From: Candidatus Aenigmatarchaeota archaeon
GTDB taxonomy: Archaea > Aenigmatarchaeota > Aenigmatarchaeia > JACPZZ01
Direction: 5' to 3'
DNA length: 24,661 nt
Assembly: GCA_043801595.1 (NCBI GenBank)
Contig: JAZDLW010000007.1
Location: forward strand, 1 to 24,661
The first letter of the stretch is position 1, and the number at the start of each line of letters is the position of its first letter. The position numbers and the translations under genes were made by a program. Positions 671-19,595 of this stretch are shown piece by piece. The notes below the pieces were generated by a model that worked only from the letters and a program-made list of their open reading frames with translations, was not told the DNA's origin and did not search any database.

Positions 671-988
671 CTAAACCGCCTGTTTGCCGTATCGGCTTTT
701 TACATCTCTGACAACTTCCCATATGCCTGAAAAGTCCGAGTTTAAATCACCTGTAACGTACAGGATCATATTTCCTATCTTTCCGGCATAAAGCCTGCTG
801 TCAGCATCGATTATTTCGCTTATTTCGCGAACTTTGACCCATTCATCGAGGACTTCGTTTATCTCTGCCAATGCGCGTATATCCACGGCATCGAAGTTTT
901 TCGGAAAAACCTCTATAACATCGAGGTTTTGCGTGAATAAAACGCCCCAGACATTTGGAATACCCAGTTCAACAGAAGTTTGGTTCAT
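671..988 (-). CDS. Small protein, possible Roadblock/LC7 (MglB)-like fold
   Basis: 105 aa ORF tightly packed between its neighbours. The pattern IPNVWGVLF...helix...LYAGKIGNMILYVTGDLNSDFSGIWEVVRDV resembles Roadblock beta-strands plus the C-terminal helix. The fold call is inference. Confidence 0.6.
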   Translation of the reverse strand: MNQTSVELGIPNVWGVLFTQNLDVIEVFPKNFDAVDIRALAEINEVLDEWVKVREISEIIDADSRLYAGKIGNMILYVTGDLNSDFSGIWEVVRDVKSRYGKQAV

Positions 989-992
989 TAAA

Positions 993-1181
993 TCAACCTT
1001 TTCGACTTACCTTGCTCCCCTTTATCTCGCTAATCTGCGAATTAAGGAAGTTTATCTTGCTCTGGAGAAACTTGACTTCTTTTAGCGTTCTCGCACAGTT
1101 AAGCCTTATTTTGGTATCTACAAGCTGTTCCCTGTAAAGCCTAATAAGCCCTTCCGCATCATCTTTCGTTATCACGATCAT
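993..1181 (-). CDS. Small basic helical/coiled-coil hypothetical protein (62 aa)
   Basis: SD-like GGGATGTGAT upstream, 4-nt gap to the next gene, heptad-like LQSKINFLNSQISEI. Confidence 0.65.
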   Translation of the reverse strand: MIVITKDDAEGLIRLYREQLVDTKIRLNCARTLKEVKFLQSKINFLNSQISEIKGSKVSRKG

Positions 1182-1242
1182 TCAAATCACATCCCGTTGC
1201 ATTTTAGCTGTTGTCACGAGTTAGTGATATTATGATACGGTA

Positions 1243-1260
1243 GTATATAAGAATTTCTAT
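1243..1260 (-). promoter_or_regulatory. Putative archaeal BRE-TATA for the leftward operon
   Basis: Minus strand reads ATAGAAATTC-TTATATAC. It resembles ATAGAAACGC-TTATAAAG upstream of the ribosomal operon. Confidence 0.5.
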
Positions 1261-1359
1261 TGTATAGTAGTGACAATCCTTATAAACTGATATATCTATG
1301 CACTATAAAGGCGATTTTTGTATACAGAACATCTTTGATCGCCTTAAGGCGCATTGCTT

Positions 1360-2487
1360 ATGAACGAAATGGCAAGACTGCTCGGTAAGTACCAGAGACC
1401 TGTTTTAGCTCTGGACACGTCAACATTAGTCAGCCTTGGCCAGAATGATATAGCTACAATATCCGCGCTTTCTAGGCTTGACCGCGAGTTAATGCACGCG
1501 AGCGGTTACGAGGTCGTGGTTCTGGAGCATGTTGCAAAAGAATATGCTCGTTTTTATGACGAAAGTGTTTTGGGGGATTTTGGGATCCCGAAAGCATCGT
1601 TGAACGTCCTTGAATCGCTTGGTTATTCCAGGTTTCCCGATCATTTGAGAACTAGGATAATCGATGCACAGAAACTGTGGAAAGAGGCATCGCCTAAATC
1701 GCCTAAAAACATTGGTCTTCAGAGTGACAGTCAAAACAACGGCCACGTTAATTATGCTCTGCGCAGATTATCGGTCCTGCCGTCAAGGTCTGATCAGGAG
1801 CTTTTAGCATTTACGCTAGAACAGGCAGAAAACAGCAGGCAATGTTATGTTTTTTCCAGGGATGAGGATATCATTGGTCCTGTCAAAAATTTGTCGAAAA
1901 AATATCCGTGCATACATTATGTTGGTTACGGTGTTGAGCGTCCGAGCCTTTTATCCGGCAAAAGAAAGCCCGTACTCATTACGCCTGAAGTTGCCGGCAC
2001 GCTCTATAATTTGGAACAGAATGAACCTCTTGAAAATTACCTGCTTTCAGCAAAAGTACCTTTTGCCGGAGAGATCGTTGATATGATGGTTTCTGTGCAT
2101 CGCGTTGAAGGCGCGATAAACATCAATGAAAAGGAAGCATCGCGTCATTTGTTAAACGTGAGCGACATTGATTCGCTGGCAGGAGTCAGCGGATATAAAA
2201 AAGACATGATAAGCGAAAGGGAAAATGCAAAATTGAAGTCTGCGGCGCGCAGGATCAATAACAAGTACGCTGCATTGTCGTTTGTCAGCGTGTCAAGGAC
2301 AAGAAGCGGAGGTCTGTTGCGCATTGCCGAAGTGAACAGGAAGGTCCGTTTTACTTCAAACGGATTGGTCAATGATGTCGAAACTCCAGATTTGGAGTGG
2401 TTTATTGCGTATCCCAGCTATCTACGCGAGTTCTCGTCAGAAACTTCGGATTATCTGGCAGGTTTCAAAAGGGAGTTTTCCAGATGA
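1360..2487 (+). CDS. PIN-domain (putative ribonuclease) protein with uncharacterised C-terminal half
   Basis: PIN acidic motifs in the expected order: LALDTSTLV, VVLEHVAKEY, SRSDQELL, YVFSRDEDI. ATG at 1360 (ORF track start is TTG 1354). Confidence 0.75.
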   Translation: MNEMARLLGKYQRPVLALDTSTLVSLGQNDIATISALSRLDRELMHASGYEVVVLEHVAKEYARFYDESVLGDFGIPKASLNVLESLGYSRFPDHLRTRIIDAQKLWKEASPKSPKNIGLQSDSQNNGHVNYALRRLSVLPSRSDQELLAFTLEQAENSRQCYVFSRDEDIIGPVKNLSKKYPCIHYVGYGVERPSLLSGKRKPVLITPEVAGTLYNLEQNEPLENYLLSAKVPFAGEIVDMMVSVHRVEGAININEKEASRHLLNVSDIDSLAGVSGYKKDMISERENAKLKSAARRINNKYAALSFVSVSRTRSGGLLRIAEVNRKVRFTSNGLVNDVETPDLEWFIAYPSYLREFSSETSDYLAGFKREFSR

Positions 2488-2520
2488 ACAATAATAAGCT
2501 TTCGGTGCGATCCAGTATAT

Positions 2521-2952
2521 ATGAGACCGCCAGACGGCTATGTGTTTGCAGCAAGATACGAAAAACCAGCCTTTGTGTCGCGTGACGCCTATCTTTCAGA
2601 TTTGAAGCGCACTCTTGAAGCGGTCTATGATGTCATTAACCAGACAAACATCGAAGAAAAATATATCCAAAGGAAAAGAGGGATGAACGCTGATCTTGTG
2701 CGAGGGTCTACGGTGAATGGTCGCTACGTATTCGCGAGAGTGAATGCGGAAATCAGGATAGTTTCGGAGGATCCGTATCTGACTCCAAAAGTCATGGCAA
2801 AGTACAAAGGAAAGTTTGTGATCCCTCCTAAACGCGTAACATCAAAGGTGGTCAGGCTTGACACGACTGTGCATCAGATGATGCATGAACTGTTTGGCAA
2901 GGATCTGTCTGTGTCGGCAACATACGGGGAACAGGCGAAACTTCCATTGTAA
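2521..2952 (+). CDS. Hypothetical protein (143 aa)
   Basis: ATG-started ORF with protein-like composition, co-oriented downstream of the PIN gene and convergent with the next gene. Confidence 0.75.
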   Translation: MRPPDGYVFAARYEKPAFVSRDAYLSDLKRTLEAVYDVINQTNIEEKYIQRKRGMNADLVRGSTVNGRYVFARVNAEIRIVSEDPYLTPKVMAKYKGKFVIPPKRVTSKVVRLDTTVHQMMHELFGKDLSVSATYGEQAKLPL

Positions 2953-2982
2953 TTTTGTTGCTATTTGATAACCATCACAGCG

Positions 2983-4095
2983 CTATCTTTGATAATCGGC
3001 TGCTGTTTTAAGTGCAGGGTGTTCCGCATTTTTGGCGTTTAAATAACCTATGACAGCCATGCCATAGATCTGCATCAGCGCTTTCGATTCCCACATCATG
3101 TTTCCTTCGTTTTTGTCCATGACTCTTATCCGTTTGAATGCAAAATCAATATATTTTTCAAAGCCGTCTGGAAGGGCCGGTATGGGATTATCAATGGCGA
3201 GTCCGGGATACTGTACCGCAATCAAATCGCAGCCCGCTTCTATTCCGTAGATCGAATGATGGTCGAATTCGTTTTCGCTTCTTACTCTCTCTTCGGATCC
3301 GAACGCTGTTTTGATTTTTCTGGTGAACTTGTCATTCGAATATATGTGTCTCTCACAGTCATCGGATGTGCGTATTCCATAACCGATTCTTTTTGTCCTT
3401 TCATCAACGCCACGGTTTATTTCGTAAACAGGAACGTTCGTAAGGACTATATCATGAGGAGCGCTTTCGCCTGCCAGCGAAGGCAGGTCTCGAATGTTTA
3501 CACTGATTCCCTGCGAGAATGCCTGTGATAAATCCTCCCTTCCCGCCTGTAAAACTACTTTGGCGCGTTTTCTGAATAATGGAGATCCGTACATTTTCCT
3601 GCCTCTGTACCAGTTGTACGGCGTGTTCGGTTTCATGTCCGTGTTCGGACCGATGCCTTCGAAGTCGAAACCTATAGGCAGGTCGTCAAAAGTTTTTACA
3701 TGATCAAGTGTGAACCTGTTCATCTGTTCTTCTTGCGCTTCTCTTACGCTTAGGTTATCTCTGTTGTATTCCCATCTCTTAGCTGGTAAAAGGTACCATC
3801 GCTTCGGAAGGCTCCGATCATTCATAGGCGGAAAAAATTGGTTTCTTGGTACGCCGATCGTTTGGTGTTCTTTAGTTTTCTCGAGCGTCTCGAAAACACC
3901 GGTCCATCTTTCACCGACAGGCATTGTAAAATCTGGCACGTAAATCGGCAGTAGAAATCTTTTTTGGACGATTTCCCTTGTCACGCCTGGTTTGTTCCTT
4001 GTATAGTTTCCCCAGCTGACATCAATCCTTCGTAGGCTGTCTTCTAATCTTTCCTGCCATGTTGTTCCGCCGTTAATTAGCGTGTCGATGTCCAT
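2983..4095 (-). CDS. Hypothetical protein (370 aa), possible degenerate metal-binding motif (SDDCERH...FDHH)
   Basis: Long ORF with TTATAT at 4124..4119, about 29 nt upstream of the ATG, which suggests a leaderless promoter. Confidence 0.8.
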   Translation of the reverse strand: MDIDTLINGGTTWQERLEDSLRRIDVSWGNYTRNKPGVTREIVQKRFLLPIYVPDFTMPVGERWTGVFETLEKTKEHQTIGVPRNQFFPPMNDRSLPKRWYLLPAKRWEYNRDNLSVREAQEEQMNRFTLDHVKTFDDLPIGFDFEGIGPNTDMKPNTPYNWYRGRKMYGSPLFRKRAKVVLQAGREDLSQAFSQGISVNIRDLPSLAGESAPHDIVLTNVPVYEINRGVDERTKRIGYGIRTSDDCERHIYSNDKFTRKIKTAFGSEERVRSENEFDHHSIYGIEAGCDLIAVQYPGLAIDNPIPALPDGFEKYIDFAFKRIRVMDKNEGNMMWESKALMQIYGMAVIGYLNAKNAEHPALKTAADYQR

Positions 4096-4198: not shown

Positions 4199-5597
4199 TC
4201 AATTGTAGAGTTTTGAAACATATTCATCCAACATGCGCTGCGCAAGAACGTACGGGGCAGAAGAAATCGCGTTCCTTATCATTTCAATCCCTTTTCCGTT
4301 GCTGGAAATATGTACGGCCTCTTCAAGTTTGTCGTCGAAGTTTGACAGGCTATCATCAACCACAAAGGCGTTCTCGCCGTCTTTCAAAGCTTCGGCAGCC
4401 CAGCCTGAAAACGTAGCTGTCTGGATGCCGCCGTTGACAAGTACTTTCATTCCGCTGGTGCCGCTCGCCTCGCGGGCCGCTTCCGGTATGTTAATCCATT
4501 TCGAAGCCTTTACAAGCGCTGCGGCTTTTGCCCTGTCATAATTGGCAATATAAGCTATGCGCGGCGTATCGGAAGTCGTGATCGTCCTGATCAGTTCCCT
4601 TAGGAACCTTTCGCCGCCCTCATCAGCGGGTTTGTCGGAAAATATGAATGTTTCATTTGGAAAGTTTTTGGCACTTCTGAGAACAGCATCCGGTCTTTTG
4701 TAATCGGTAAGCCGTTTTGCATATGTTAAAGGTTCGCGCCCGTCCATGTCAAGGTCTGTGAAGTTGGAAATAACTTCGCCGTCCGCGCGCCATTTGTGGA
4801 ACGCTTCGCAGAGGTCTATTTTGTTAAGATATCTTGCCACAAGCAGTTCTTTGTCGGGTATTTTTGCATCTTTGAGCAATTCGGTTTCATTTCTCCATCC
4901 GGCAGCATATTTATCGTACAGTTGCTGCATGTGCACGCTCATCCACCCAAGAAAAACGGCGTTGGTAACCGAAGTTATTTTTCCGCTGTATTTTTTATCA
5001 GGGTAGAGTTTTTTTGTCTCAGCTTCATGCATTTTGGATACTGCGCAGATAATGTCGCTGCTATCCGCAAGGACTTTGCCAAAATCTATGCACGATTCTT
5101 CTTCGCCGGATTTCATCCATTCCAAAAACTTGTCCTCCATCAATAATTTGCAGTTGTACTTGCCGAATTTTTTGTGGCCATGCCTTTCCGACGTATGCGT
5201 GTGCCATATCAATCCTGCCCTGGCACCGTCCCCGTTTACTCTTGGGTATTATCTCAAAAAAATAGGCTTGCGTATTTTCCGTGCTGAGCGGATCAAGATA
5301 AACAGACACGTCAAAAGGATACCACTTGGTTCCGAGGCTGAGCCTGTCGACCTGGTTTTTTCTGAGCGAATCATTGCTGGCAGGTATGGCATCCGTTGCA
5401 ACCGAATAACCGTTGTTTGCTTTTGTGATTGTTTGGTGTGTTTTCATAGGATAAACCGGGGCAAACATGTAAAACGGAAGATTTCTTCTTCTTGCCTCGT
5501 AGAAAACGTCGGAAGTCAGCCCGCCCAAACCGCCTAAGCCTCCCCCGTCTATCATGTCCGTTTCAAGGGTGGCATAAATGACCGGGTTTTTATCCAT
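4199..5597 (-). pseudogene. glgP: Alpha-glucan (glycogen/maltodextrin) phosphorylase, split into two frames
   Basis: The 5' ORF (5597) has VIYATLE..GGLGGLTSD..NLPFYMFAPVY, matching YFSME..SGGLGVLAGD..LPLVGVGLLY. The 3' frame has WHTHT..GH, AVSKMH, VTNAV, YAKRLTDYKRP, KPADEGG, IANYD and the PLP-lysine motif EASGTSGMK plus GW. The span is 1399 nt (3n+1), with the frame switch between about 5248 and 5213. Confidence 0.85.
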
Positions 5598-12951: not shown

Positions 12952-13026
12952 CGACGCTTCTGAAAAAGGTTCTGAACTCGATAACCGACAAATCAATGGA
13001 AAACTTCGGTTTTCGTGCATAGAAAG
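12952..13026. repeat. Degenerate A-type remnant plus B-type palindromic repeat
   Basis: cgacgcttctgaaaaaggtt resembles cgaccttttctgaaa at 14630. caatggaaaacttcggttttcgtgcatagaaag (12994..13026) contains the GAAAAC-TTCG-GTTTTC hairpin and matches the B copies at 14645 and 19232. Confidence 0.65.
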
Positions 13027-13144: not shown

Positions 13145-13183
13145 AGCTTTAATCAAACTTTTCTAAAAAGTTTAGATTAAGCT
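13145..13183 (-). repeat. A-type palindromic repeat, hairpin at the stop codon of the small membrane gene (possible terminator or 3' stabiliser)
   Basis: agctttaatcaaactttt-cta-aaaagtttagattaagct is an 18-nt-arm inverted repeat with two bulges. A T-rich tract follows on the minus strand at about 13072..13090. Confidence 0.7.
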
Positions 13184-13482
13184 TCTTGTAGCAATGTCAA
13201 CGCAGCAAGCAAAGCTCCGACCAAGACGGCTATGCCGCCCAAGACGCTAAACAGCCCTGCTAGCTGACCACCGAAAGACAGCGAACCCAAACCAATTGTT
13301 GCCAATGTGGCGGTTCCCATGGTTTCAGCCGTTACTCCGGACAGGAGTAGTAAAACTCCGCCCGCAGCAATCCAGCTAAAAGCCTTTTCTGCCATCTTTC
13401 GAAGACCTGTGTACTCAGCTAATGCGAGTACAACGAACACACCTATGACCGGACTACTCAATAGTTCCAAGCCAACAGTCAT
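13177..13482 (-). CDS. Small very hydrophobic membrane protein (101 aa, about 3 TM helices)
   Basis: Strong SD AGGTGA 7 nt upstream of the ATG at 13482. Gly/Ala/Leu-rich TM segments. Confidence 0.8.
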   Translation of the reverse strand: MTVGLELLSSPVIGVFVVLALAEYTGLRKMAEKAFSWIAAGGVLLLLSGVTAETMGTATLATIGLGSLSFGGQLAGLFSVLGGIAVLVGALLAALTLLQEA

Positions 13483-13529
13483 GTCGTTTTCACCTACAAC
13501 TAATTGGAAGGTCATTGATTTAAACACAG

Positions 13530-13571
13530 ATACGTCAATAAACGATATTTATACGTCAATAGACGATATTT
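13530..13571. promoter_or_regulatory. Tandem 21-bp direct repeat with palindromic cores, putative transcription-factor operator pair
   Basis: atacgtcaataaacgatattt (13530..13550) and atacgtcaatagacgatattt (13551..13571) differ by 1 mismatch. The core is CGTC-N4-GACG. Confidence 0.7.
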
Positions 13572-13593
13572 TAGCGCAAAAACCAGTGTTAGA

Positions 13594-13962
13594 TCAACGC
13601 AACGGTTTCTTGTGCTCCCGTGCCAGCAGTAGCGCAAACAGAATCAACAGCAAGGCAGCGTAGTACTTGAAGAAGAGTGCGAAGAAAATCAACGATCTGG
13701 CAACAGTGCTATCGTAAAGCACATACGGATCTCCGAACACGCCGCCCACAAGCGCGTTGTACGAATGGTACGAAGCCTCGGTCAGGTTGGCAGCTCCGAT
13801 TATGAGTATTGAAACGACCAACCCTAGCCACGATAGTGGTCTTTCCTTCTCCTTGTAGCTGTTATAAACGAATTTTAGAATGAAATATGACGCGAAAATG
13901 TAAACGAGCGTTAACGAGAATCCCGAAAATATCAGGAAATTCCAAAGATAGGTGTTGACCAT
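13594..13962 (-). CDS. Hypothetical membrane protein (122 aa, about 3 TM helices)
   Basis: Three hydrophobic segments and a basic C-terminal tail, directly downstream of rpl18. Confidence 0.75.
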   Translation of the reverse strand: MVNTYLWNFLIFSGFSLTLVYIFASYFILKFVYNSYKEKERPLSWLGLVVSILIIGAANLTEASYHSYNALVGGVFGDPYVLYDSTVARSLIFFALFFKYYAALLLILFALLLAREHKKPLR

Positions 13963-14001
13963 GATAATACTTTTGGTTTTGGCTCAAATAAGTTCGCTGT
14001 C

Positions 14002-14571
14002 TCAGAATTTTGCTGCAATCGCTTTCTTAATTTCCTCGAAGTGCGTCGAAATTTCTTCGGGCTTTATTCCGGCCTTTGCGTACGCTGCGAACCGTTTTTT
14101 CAACTCGGATTGGTCGGATTTTTTCAATGCTTCGGCATAACCGGCTATATGCTTTCCGCTGATCCTGTCCATTGTCGGTAGTATTGCCGGATCGTGCGGA
14201 ATCTTCATGCCCGCATCAACCGCGCCTTTCAAAACCGCGTAAATTCCGCCGCCTTTTGTTGAGTCTTGCAACCCTATATCCATAACAGCTTCGTCGGCCT
14301 TGCCTTTCGCCTTCATTCCACAGAGGAATCCGGACAAGTATGCCGCAGGTAAGTTTCCGGTCGGCAGTTTCCAGCCAAAGTTTTTTAATTCCAGGCTGTT
14401 AACAGCCGCGATGGCTTTGTCGCCTCTTGGCGTGTAGCTCACAATCTCCACTATGTAGTTTTTCAATGTCCTCCTTACGACAAATCTCGGTTTCTCGGAT
14501 CGCAGCAGGTTTAACCGCTTGTTGTAGTCTGTTCTTTGTTCTTTTCTGCGCCTGAATTGTAAACTCGTCAT
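14002..14571 (-). CDS. rpl18: 50S ribosomal protein uL18
   Basis: FRRRKEQRTDYNKRLNLL, GNLPAAYLSG, AVLKGAVDAG. Confidence 0.96.
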   Translation of the reverse strand: MTSLQFRRRKEQRTDYNKRLNLLRSEKPRFVVRRTLKNYIVEIVSYTPRGDKAIAAVNSLELKNFGWKLPTGNLPAAYLSGFLCGMKAKGKADEAVMDIGLQDSTKGGGIYAVLKGAVDAGMKIPHDPAILPTMDRISGKHIAGYAEALKKSDQSELKKRFAAYAKAGIKPEEISTHFEEIKKAIAAKF

Positions 14572-15140
14572 TTCTTTTCACTCTTTTTCATTCTCTTTTG
14601 ATCAAACTTTTCCGAAAAGTTTGTTTGGTCGACCTTTTCTGAAACAATGGAAATCTTTGGATTTCCATGCACAGGAAGCTTTGTTTCCTGTGAGATCAGG
14701 TTGTGTTCTTTCAGGTAGAGTTCCAAGTGTTTCCTGCTTCGGAACACGCCACCCTTTGAAAGCTTGTATAATTTTTTGTACGTTTCGTTGTTTATTGTTC
14801 CCGATGCTTTTAACTCACGGATCATCTGTCTCTGCGGTCGTATTGTTCGTATCCATCTTGCCTTTTGTTCATTGCCTGTTCTGGATTTGAAAGATCCTTT
14901 CCTGCTTCCGTGCCCGCGTCTTCGTCCTTTCTTTTTCTGTGCAGCGCGTACAGCTATCTGCGTTTTTGAAGGCGCATCTTCAGGAGCCTTTTCAATTGCG
15001 CCGCTTTTTATTAATTTTCTAACGTCTTCCCTTGTTATGGCTTCCGAAATATCTTTTAGTCTCAATGGCTCCATCCACACCTTGTGCTGGCCGCACTTCA
15101 AGAGTTTTGAAGCCAATCTTCTTTGTATGCTAAGGTTCAT
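14568..15140 (-). CDS. rpl19e: 50S ribosomal protein eL19 with a repeat-derived C-terminal extension
   Basis: QRRLAS..LKCG..KVW, AITREDVRKLI, KGRRRGHGSRKG, WIRTIR. About 40 extra residues follow YLKEHNLI. Confidence 0.96.
   Translation of the reverse strand: MNLSIQRRLASKLLKCGQHKVWMEPLRLKDISEAITREDVRKLIKSGAIEKAPEDAPSKTQIAVRAAQKKKGRRRGHGSRKGSFKSRTGNEQKARWIRTIRPQRQMIRELKASGTINNETYKKLYKLSKGGVFRSRKHLELYLKEHNLISQETKLPVHGNPKISIVSEKVDQTNFSEKFDQKRMKKSEKK
14597..14692. repeat. Composite A + partial A + B palindromic element inside the rpl19e coding sequence
   Basis: tttgat-caaacttttccgaaaagtttg | tttggt-cgaccttttctgaaa | caatggaaatctttggatttccatg-cacaggaagctttgtttcctgtg, 96 bp with these boundaries. 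Confidence 0.8.
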
Positions 15141-18909: not shown

Positions 18910-19212
18910 TCACCATTTTTCGATTTTCTTTTTTATCCTGTCCTGCGGACGCCCCACGAGCGTCGCACCGTCAACCTTCACGATCCCGTCCGGGATCGTG
19001 AAGTTAAACCTGTATTTTTCCTTTATCACGGTTTTTTTGCCTTTTGGTGTTGTTAGCGTAAACGTATTTCTCGTTTCATCGAGCACAATGCCGTTGATCG
19101 CAGTCCCAGTGCTTTTCGGACAGGCCGTGCATTGTAAACCGATGATTTCATGCCTTATTATATTTGAAGGCTTTATCATGTCGTCACGTTCTCTTTGCTT
19201 AAGCTCCTCCAT
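18910..19212 (-). CDS. rnp1: RNase P protein subunit Rpp29 (component 1)
   Basis: NIIRHEIIGL, GIVLDETRNT, VDGATLVGRPQDRIK, in the canonical operon position. An alternative start is 19179. Confidence 0.93.
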   Translation of the reverse strand: MEELKQRERDDMIKPSNIIRHEIIGLQCTACPKSTGTAINGIVLDETRNTFTLTTPKGKKTVIKEKYRFNFTIPDGIVKVDGATLVGRPQDRIKKKIEKW

Positions 19213-19215
19213 TTC

Positions 19216-19295
19216 TTTGATTAAACTTTCTCAAAGGAAACGATACGTTTCCTTTGCACGGAAAGCCTTGCTTTCCGTTGTATGAAGAAAGTTTA
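19216..19295. repeat. Nested element: B-type double hairpin inside the loop of an A-type hairpin
   Basis: tttgat-taaactttct[caaaggaaacg-ata-cgtttcctttg cacggaaagc-ctt-gctttccgttg]tatga-agaaagttta fills the SUI1-rnp1 spacer. Confidence 0.85.
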
Positions 19296-19595
19296 TTTCA
19301 GTTGGATCTGGCTTTCCTTGAAACCGTATTTTACCAGTATCGGTTTCAATTTCGCCTTGTGGTCCCCCTGCAACTCTATTCTGCCTTTTTTGTATGTGCC
19401 GCCGCAAGCGAGCTTTGACTTCAGCGTTTTTACGAGGTCTTTTGCGTTTTTTTCATCAACGCCTTCGACGATCGTTACGTTTTTGCCGTAACTCCTCTTG
19501 TCGAGGTATATGATTATTTGCTGGTCCTTTATACCCATTGCCGTGCATATGCAAAGCTCTCGCGGTAAACCGCAGTTAGGACATGTGTCTGCCAT
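19293..19595 (-). CDS. sui1: Translation initiation factor aIF1 (SUI1 homolog)
   Basis: CPNCGLPRELCIC, LKSKLACGGT, IELQGDH. Confidence 0.95.
   Translation of the reverse strand: MADTCPNCGLPRELCICTAMGIKDQQIIIYLDKRSYGKNVTIVEGVDEKNAKDLVKTLKSKLACGGTYKKGRIELQGDHKAKLKPILVKYGFKESQIQLK

What the first reader, a model, noticed from the sequence alone, without database searches (positions are those of the whole stretch)
14597..14692. Palindromic repeat composite translated in frame as the C-terminal tail of ribosomal protein eL19
Seen: the eL19-like sequence ends around residue 149 (YLKEHNLI). The next 32 or so codons (SQETKLPVHGNPKISIVSEKVDQTNFSEKFDQK) are encoded by the B + partial A + A composite. 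It is 96 bp with my boundaries, a multiple of 3, and has no stop. The ATGA overlap with rpl18 is preserved. Established: archaeal eL19 is usually about 145-150 aa, and in-frame palindrome insertions into genes are known from Rickettsia (RPEs). Inference: a selfish repeat has created new peptide sequence on a core archaeal ribosomal protein.
Basis: partly seen in the sequence, partly recalled or inferred. Interest (0 to 1): 0.75.

Follow-up and report, generated by a model that had tools for sequence, protein, structure and literature searches.

The report
Nested DNA hairpins lengthen ribosomal protein
In a tiny groundwater archaeon, short mobile-looking DNA hairpins have stacked up, one inside another, at the end of a core ribosomal protein gene and add about 30 amino acids that its closest relatives lack; this is most likely a tolerated accident of a kind already known from Rickettsia.

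Summary
Confirmed, with corrected anatomy. This Aenigmatarchaeote's eL19 is 190 aa; the conserved domain ends at residue 146-150. Residues 150-184 are read from genome-wide repeats: two tandem A hairpin modules, the first split by a 48-bp B double hairpin, plus A's terminal motif (14589-14697). The closest known homologue (87% identical) lacks 33 residues there, and a groundwater contig skips a net 90 bp, so the tail is a lineage-specific gain. Two of six congeners carry other copies at this junction with the stop inside the repeat, so read-through and the ATGA overlap are optional. The same repeats give a clean 16-aa insert in RtcA (absent in 5 of 5 orthologues), build uS5 tails in 7 of 7 genus genomes and fill tRNA introns. 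Only 2 of 77 loci lie inside genes (66 expected). No mobiliser was found; translation is not shown; the filled allele is seen in one assembly only. Best reading: a neutral, RPE/REP-like insertion into a disordered tail. The scan described this repeat family before in this genome, and similar tails in other DPANN and CPR genomes.

The parts
14568..15140 (-). rpl19e (eL19) ORF, 190 aa; conserved part to about residue 149, tail residues 150-190
   Evidence: AlphaFold model: coil 146-174, pLDDT under 50 at 158-169, low-confidence helix 175-189
14645..14692 (+). B element, 48 bp, two hairpins each starting CA and ending TG; read antisense in eL19, residues 150-166; open in all six frames
   Evidence: (E 1.9e-11); 47 of 48 identical to G000:C30 copy in a tRNA-Asp intron
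14693..14697 (-). first five bases of A module 1 (left arm, upstream of B); overlaps host codon Ile149
   Evidence: pairs with 14631-14635 once B is removed; partly shared with the empty-site contig, so the left boundary is uncertain by a few bases
14623..14644 (-). rest of A module 1 (hairpin and linker); residues 166-173
   Evidence: (27-nt spacing to module 2)
14597..14622 (-). A module 2: hairpin 14604-14622 plus linker; residues 174-182 (NFSEKFDQK)
   Evidence: E 7.2e-07
   Evidence: 18 copies vs 2 and 0 in controls; follows A; K-R-M absent from P0002
14568..14588 (-). native gene end KKSEKK-stop, with the ATGA overlap onto uL18
   Evidence: same six residues end the 87%-identical homologue P0002
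14002..14571 (-). rpl18 (uL18) ORF, 189 aa, start codon overlapping the eL19 stop
19211..19299 (-). second composite in the window: B inside an A hairpin, at the 3' end of the ORF 19293-19595, not translated through
13148..13173 (-). lone A hairpin, intergenic; a decayed B junction lies at 13010-13025

Best explanation
The tail is the by-product of successive insertions of short non-autonomous hairpin elements into a permissive spot. Shown: the DNA is A module + A module + terminal motif, with B sitting in the stem of the first A; relatives lack it. Inferred order: A modules entered the lysine/glutamate-rich end of rpl19e just upstream of the native KKSEKK; B then inserted precisely, without a target duplication, into the A stem, the kind of site it occupies across the genome. 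Each step happened to be a stop-free multiple of three (A period 27 nt, B 48 nt), so the frame still reaches the old stop. It persists because eL19's C-terminus lies beyond the folded domain. Most copies landing in coding DNA are purged, or the elements prefer existing hairpins, so copies pile up between genes, in tRNA introns and at gene ends. Inferred, not shown: mobilisation through hairpin single-stranded DNA by an HUH-type enzyme acting in trans or now lost. The peptide most likely has no selected function.
For: Empty sites: P0002 (87% identical, 157 aa, ends HNIISEKKSEKK); contig record 12 of run X3 spans both flanks and skips 94 bases with 4 others between; 3 of 6 congeners show no repeat at the junction. 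Independent gains: an empty allele (P0010) is sister to the filled G003 allele at 99/95 support. Precise insertion: flanks of B are A|A in 18 of 33 copies, duplication of at most 2 nt in 32 of 33, and removal restores hairpins in many A-nested copies. Second clean case: 48-bp/16-aa B insert in RtcA, absent from 5 of 5 genus orthologues and from PDB 4o89, modelled as a low-confidence loop, 255-272. Avoidance of coding DNA: 2 of 77 loci inside genes, 6 holding a stop, against 66 expected (minimum 57 in 200 draws). Frame by chance is plausible: 17 of 32 A units and 13 of 33 B units are multiples of three, about 0.11 for three steps (my arithmetic). Congeners G003 and G004 stop inside the repeat and lose the overlap. 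A related double-hairpin repeat breaks a transposase gene in G006, so insertion is not frame-aware.
Against: No mobiliser: Y1_Tnp absent from G000 (86% complete) and present in 2 of 7 family relatives, where it has ordinary IS200/IS605-type ends and no A or B flanks; RAYT model over cut-off in 0 of 5 genomes. uS5 tails reach the same conserved stop in 6 of 7 genomes despite five different lengths, which hints at selection on frame. The filled eL19 allele is known from one contig only and no laid run bridges it. The P0001+P0002 pairing has weak support (81/66). The X3 allele keeps the terminal-motif stretch, so it could be a deletion rather than a never-filled site.
Confidence: 0.72

Rival explanations
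1. The repeat-made tails are kept by selection: they supply charged extensions to ribosomal proteins (eL19, uS5, uL30) or keep translational coupling to the next gene; the 190-aa eL19 would reach towards the small subunit like the eukaryotic bridge eB12 helix.
For: uS5 tails are A-derived in 7 of 7 genus genomes, 6 reading to the same stop; G001 uS5 carries NFSEKLDQKRM, nearly the eL19 peptide; a uL30 tail in G006 too. A's frame gives K/E/D/Q-rich peptide; the eL19 tail has net charge +4 and a predicted helix at 175-189. Eukaryotic eL19 has a long C-terminal helix forming eB12, which archaea lack (PMC9932298, passages).
Against: eL19 tails share no sequence across the genus and range from 150 to 190 aa total; overlap kept in only 3 of 7; a proline-containing coil separates the helix from the core and helix confidence is about 56-60; no match of the tail to eukaryotic eL19 tails; half of A units are multiples of three anyway.
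Confidence: 0.13
2. The repeats are not transposed by a dedicated enzyme but arise by replication slippage, template switching and gene conversion between hairpins, and may be kept as RNA-stability or terminator hairpins at gene ends; the eL19 tail is incidental read-through.
For: No transposase tied to the repeats; tandem 27-nt A units fit slippage; 47-of-48 identity with the tRNA-Asp copy, next best score 36.5, fits conversion; copies cluster at gene ends.
Against: The RtcA insert sits in a site with no prior hairpin, with sharp ends and no duplication; B has fixed CA/TG ends in 33 copies; the eL19 copy lies inside a ribosomal operon, where termination would be harmful (inference).
Confidence: 0.1
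3. The insert is an assembly artefact, or is removed from the mRNA as a bulge-helix-bulge intron, so no tail is made.
For: One assembly only; no run bridges the filled site; a near-identical B sits in a true tRNA intron.
Against: Contig ends overlap by 141 bases, implying an assembly word longer than the whole composite (inference); the twin differs at one base and has other flanks; congeners have their own inserts at the site. A strict bulge-helix-bulge scan recovered the 100-nt and 190-nt tRNA introns (missed tRNA-Cys) but in eL19 found 4 candidates of 40 nt or more, none a multiple of three, against 6.2 per random 220 nt.
Confidence: 0.05

Closest known systems
Rickettsia palindromic elements (RPE; Ogata et al. 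2000, as described in PMC2229807 and PMC10969869, passages read)
   Same: Dispersed palindromes fused in frame into conserved genes, also found in RNA genes; effect thought neutral or slightly harmful (guanylate kinase).
   Different: RPEs are 105-150 bp single long hairpins and nearly half lie in ORFs; here units are 27-52 bp, nest inside each other, and only 2 of 77 loci lie inside genes. No sequence comparison with RPEs was run.
Methanocaldococcus jannaschii palindromic repeats with coding potential (Suyama et al. 2005; seen only as a citation and one sentence in PMC2229807; the name MJRE is recalled)
   Same: Archaeal precedent for repeats fused into protein genes, so the phenomenon is not new for Archaea.
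   Different: Paper not held, so sequence kinship is untested; the first 50 kb of the M. jannaschii large plasmid gave one half-A match at E 0.014.
REP / BIME / REPIN elements and RAYT (TnpA-REP) transposases (PMC6006769, PMC3733652, passages read)
   Same: 20-65 nt hairpins, mosaics and dimers, mostly extragenic, some intragenic copies encoding 20-30 aa at termini or in loops; CGTC-type REPs also lack a dedicated transposase.
   Different: No GTAG/GTGG or CGTC foot in the A or B alignments (by eye); no REP-flanked transposase found; B inserts into stems of other hairpins; archaeal host.
Eukaryotic eL19 C-terminal helix (bridge eB12; PMC9932298, passages read)
   Same: Extension of similar length at the same end of the same protein.
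   Different: No sequence match beyond about residue 155; here mostly coil, lineage-specific, repeat-derived.

Membership tests
RPE-like coding palindromes | dispersed multi-copy palindrome | tested here: met
   77 loci
RPE-like coding palindromes | in-frame insertion in conserved genes with empty orthologues | tested here: met
   eL19, RtcA 5 of 5
RPE-like coding palindromes | 105-150 bp single long hairpin | tested here: not met
   A unit 25-33 nt, B 48-52 nt, nested
RPE-like coding palindromes | fusion protein is expressed and active | not testable with these tools
   no RNA holder listed; no proteomics
REP/REPIN-RAYT | short extragenic hairpins in mosaics or doublets | tested here: met
REP/REPIN-RAYT | GTAG/GTGG (or CGTC) tetranucleotide at the hairpin foot | tested here: not met
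   not seen in alignments of 15 B and 32 A copies (by eye)
REP/REPIN-RAYT | cognate RAYT gene flanked by the repeats | tested here: not met
   NF047646 over cut-off in 0 of 5 genomes; 12 Y1 loci show no A/B flanks apart from one single-hairpin B-like match in G031 at E 0.003; genomes are 71-91% complete
Classical MITE (TIR + TSD) | target-site duplication | tested here: not met
   at most 2 nt in 32 of 33 B copies; none in RtcA beyond 1 nt. For A not resolved: a 5-nt direct repeat brackets the composite
IS200/IS605-derived non-autonomous elements (HUH, no TSD) | ends match those of a resident IS200/IS605 element | tested here: not met
   ends of the G004 and G006 Y1 elements differ from A and B
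Archaeal bulge-helix-bulge intron | BHB motif that excises the insert in frame | tested here: not met
M. jannaschii coding palindromes | sequence kinship | tested here: inconclusive
   only 50 kb of a plasmid scanned; paper not held

The most novel reading that the evidence does not exclude
A and B form an undescribed two-tier mobile system: A, a hairpin module shared by many archaea and some bacteria, and B, confined to one Aenigmatarchaeote family, which homes into A stems without target duplication through an unknown enzyme. A's charged reading frame acts as a repeated source of new ribosomal-protein extensions (uS5 in a whole genus, eL19, uL30), with selection keeping the frame, giving a living model of how extensions such as the eukaryotic eL19 bridge helix begin.
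Probability: 0.12. Interest if true: 0.78.

Novelty: new variant of a known kind. Interest (0 to 1): 0.47.

Why it matters
It shows, with filled and empty alleles among close relatives, how new peptide is added stepwise to an essential ribosomal protein, and gives a very clean internal case (RtcA plus or minus 16 aa) that can be assayed. The general phenomenon is known from Rickettsia, bacterial REPs and M. jannaschii, which caps the surprise. The open questions are what moves these hairpins in a genome with no detected transposase, and why the A module recurs from DPANN and Methanosarcinales to Clostridia.

Tried and rejected
Mobiliser: Y1_Tnp none in G000, 12 of 41 relatives, 12 loci examined without A/B flanks; reverse transcriptases in 2 of 5 genomes look like diversity-generating-retroelement RTs (my reading of the upstream template-like text) and are not flanked by the repeats, though one lies beside uS5; tyrosine integrases in 2 of 5, no flanks. 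TnpB, IS110 and DDE families were not searched. Expression: no RNA holder listed. Reads: four runs laid as contigs at 82% likeness; none bridges the filled site. Metagenome scan with eL19 gave 3 distant loci only. Rfam on 16 loci: tRNAs and 5S only, Clostridiales-2 below cut-off. Plasmid blastn: short matches only, taken as chance. Idea that the C30 twin lies in SRP RNA: rejected, SRP is on C23 and the twin is in a tRNA-Asp intron (ARAGORN found it only with introns allowed). Apparent in-frame repeats at the start of uS2, Trm56, SepF and FtsZ: rejected as upstream of the true start (shown for uS2; inferred for the rest). Fuzzy B1/B2 regexes matched controls too and were dropped. Pattern with the terminal motif found nothing in genome contigs. 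Literature: searches found no description of these repeats or of repeat tails in Aenigmatarchaeota; subscription papers and supplements were not searched, and the supplement of PMC3733652 listing intragenic REPs was not read.

Full report
Setting. The window is contig C31 of an 814-kb, 86% complete genome; near homologues of its eL19 are labelled Candidatus Aenigmarchaeota. It holds the ribosomal protein cluster on the minus strand.

Observation. rpl19e runs 15140-14568, 190 aa, and overlaps rpl18 by ATGA. Pfam domains end at residue 146; solved archaeal chains are 143-151 aa. The tail DNA matches many places in the genome, and its core motifs occur 29, 41 and 18 times against 0-2 in Markov controls.

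Anatomy. B (14645-14692) is a 48-bp pair of hairpins, each beginning CA and ending TG, read antisense in eL19. Removing it in silico restores a complete A hairpin, so the 'partial A' is a whole A split by B. A second A module follows at a 27-nt period, then the terminal motif of A arrays (14589-14599), encoding K-R-M. Residues 150-184 are therefore repeat-derived and KKSEKK (185-190) native.

Empty sites. The closest homologue, P0002 (87% identical), ends HNIISEKKSEKK, 33 residues shorter. A contig of run X3 (65 differences in 700 bases and 11 in 152; depth 5) covers both flanks and skips 94 bases with 4 others between, a net 90 bp. Of 6 congeners, G004 has A and G003 has A with B at the junction (HMM hits), both with the stop inside the repeat and 28 and 75 nt to the uL18 start; G001 has a decayed A-like stretch (by eye); G002, G005 and G006 show none. 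The overlap is present in 3 of 7. In a tree of 25 eL19 cores an empty allele is sister to the G003 allele (99/95), so the site was hit more than once; the pairing of the window with P0002 is weak (81/66). Against: the filled allele is known from one contig and no laid run bridges it. The 141-base contig overlaps make a repeat mis-join unlikely (inference).

Genome-wide pattern. With my own gene calls (860 genes, 87% coding), 77 repeat loci fall as 65 intergenic, 6 holding a stop codon, 4 in tRNAs and 2 inside genes; random placement puts 66 inside genes. The second intragenic copy is in RtcA: 48 bp, 16 aa, absent from 5 of 5 genus orthologues found (6 genomes searched), an exact gap against PDB 4o89, and the only low-confidence segment of the model. 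uS5 tails are A-derived in 7 of 7 genus genomes, 6 reading to the same stop with tails of 13, 13, 21, 25, 34 and 42 residues as I counted them. Among 60 loci from relatives (30 of 45 B matches, 30 of 53 A matches; some overlap), 9 had an ORF of 80 aa or more through the motif and 4 looked like true C-terminal tails, including uS5 and uL30; none was an internal insert. The nearest B relative (47 of 48) lies in a tRNA-Asp intron, in the same position of an A hairpin.

Distribution. The B junction is in 8 of 41 relatives, all of family f1; among 301 genomes of the phylum it is multi-copy only in this genus, with single places in 4 others and one control hit. The A pattern is in 16 of 41 and, in a capped scan of 130 stretches, in Woesearchaeota, Micrarchaeota, Methanosarcinales, Thermococcus, Clostridia and Aminicenantes, in several cases inside or just after tRNA genes. 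Whether all these share descent is not shown.

Mechanism. B inserts with sharp ends: A|A flanks in 18 of 33 copies and at most 2 nt duplicated in 32 of 33, often in a hairpin stem. That fits single-strand hairpin transposition of the HUH type (PMC6006769, passages), but no cognate enzyme was found. Frame-keeping needs no special cause: 17 of 32 A units and 13 of 33 B units are multiples of three, this B is open in all six frames, and a related repeat breaks a transposase gene in G006. The tail is modelled as coil with a weak end helix. Splicing as a bulge-helix-bulge intron is not supported.

Known context. In-frame palindromes are documented for Rickettsia RPEs, including RNA genes and a near-neutral enzyme test, and for an archaeon (PMC2229807, passages; PMC10969869, passages); intragenic REPs encoding 20-30 aa are common and thought neutral at termini and in loops (PMC3733652, passages). 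Suyama et al. 2005 was not held. Archaeal eL19 lacks the eukaryotic bridge helix (PMC9932298, passages). Seven searches (listings only) found no description of these repeats. Earlier notes of this scan describe the same repeats in this genome and similar tails elsewhere; none matched this sequence.

Verdict. Real, and correctly interpreted in outline. It works like RPE or intragenic REP insertion but fails membership of REP-RAYT and of classical MITEs. New variant of a known kind; interest 0.47.

Noticed in passing
G000:C23:79327-80403 (L034, L177), RtcA residues about 257-272: Clean 48-bp, 16-aa B insert inside RNA 3'-phosphate cyclase, absent from 5 of 5 genus orthologues; the best test case for neutrality.
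   Followed up: yes
G000:C21:51637-51764 (L183) and L184-L189: uS5 C-terminal tails built from A modules in all 7 genus genomes; 6 read to the same stop.
   Followed up: partly
G000:C30:21680-22176 (L037); L197-L199, L206: tRNA-Asp and tRNA-Lys introns of 100 and 190 nt filled with A and B modules; intron content differs in each congener.
   Followed up: partly
L212:1470-1520 (G006): IS200-type transposase gene broken by a third double-hairpin family, also present in G000 (C2:11925, C14:17366).
   Followed up: partly
L047-L176: The A pattern recurs in distant archaea and in Clostridia, Aminicenantes and Cloacimonadota, often after a GC-rich hairpin in bacteria and in or beside tRNA genes in archaea; no Rfam family over cut-off in the 14 of these loci scanned other than tRNA.
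   Followed up: partly
L027 (G014), eL19-uL18 junction: In another family the eL19 stop also lies inside a hairpin resembling A, followed by a second hairpin; the junction may be a wider hotspot.
   Followed up: no
L223:870-2228 (G006) and L222:1300-2355 (G003): Reverse transcriptases resembling those of diversity-generating retroelements; the G006 one lies just upstream of uS5.
   Followed up: no
window 13177-14001: uL18 is followed by two small membrane-protein ORFs without Pfam match, not by uS5, which lies on contig C21: the spc-type cluster is split.
   Followed up: no
window 671-4095: Five ORFs (105, 62, 377, 143, 370 aa) without Pfam match at the left end of the window.
   Followed up: no
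window 4199-5597: Two ORFs that look like pieces of a carbohydrate phosphorylase-like gene (weak Pfam hit on the 337-aa one); possibly a frameshifted gene.
   Followed up: no
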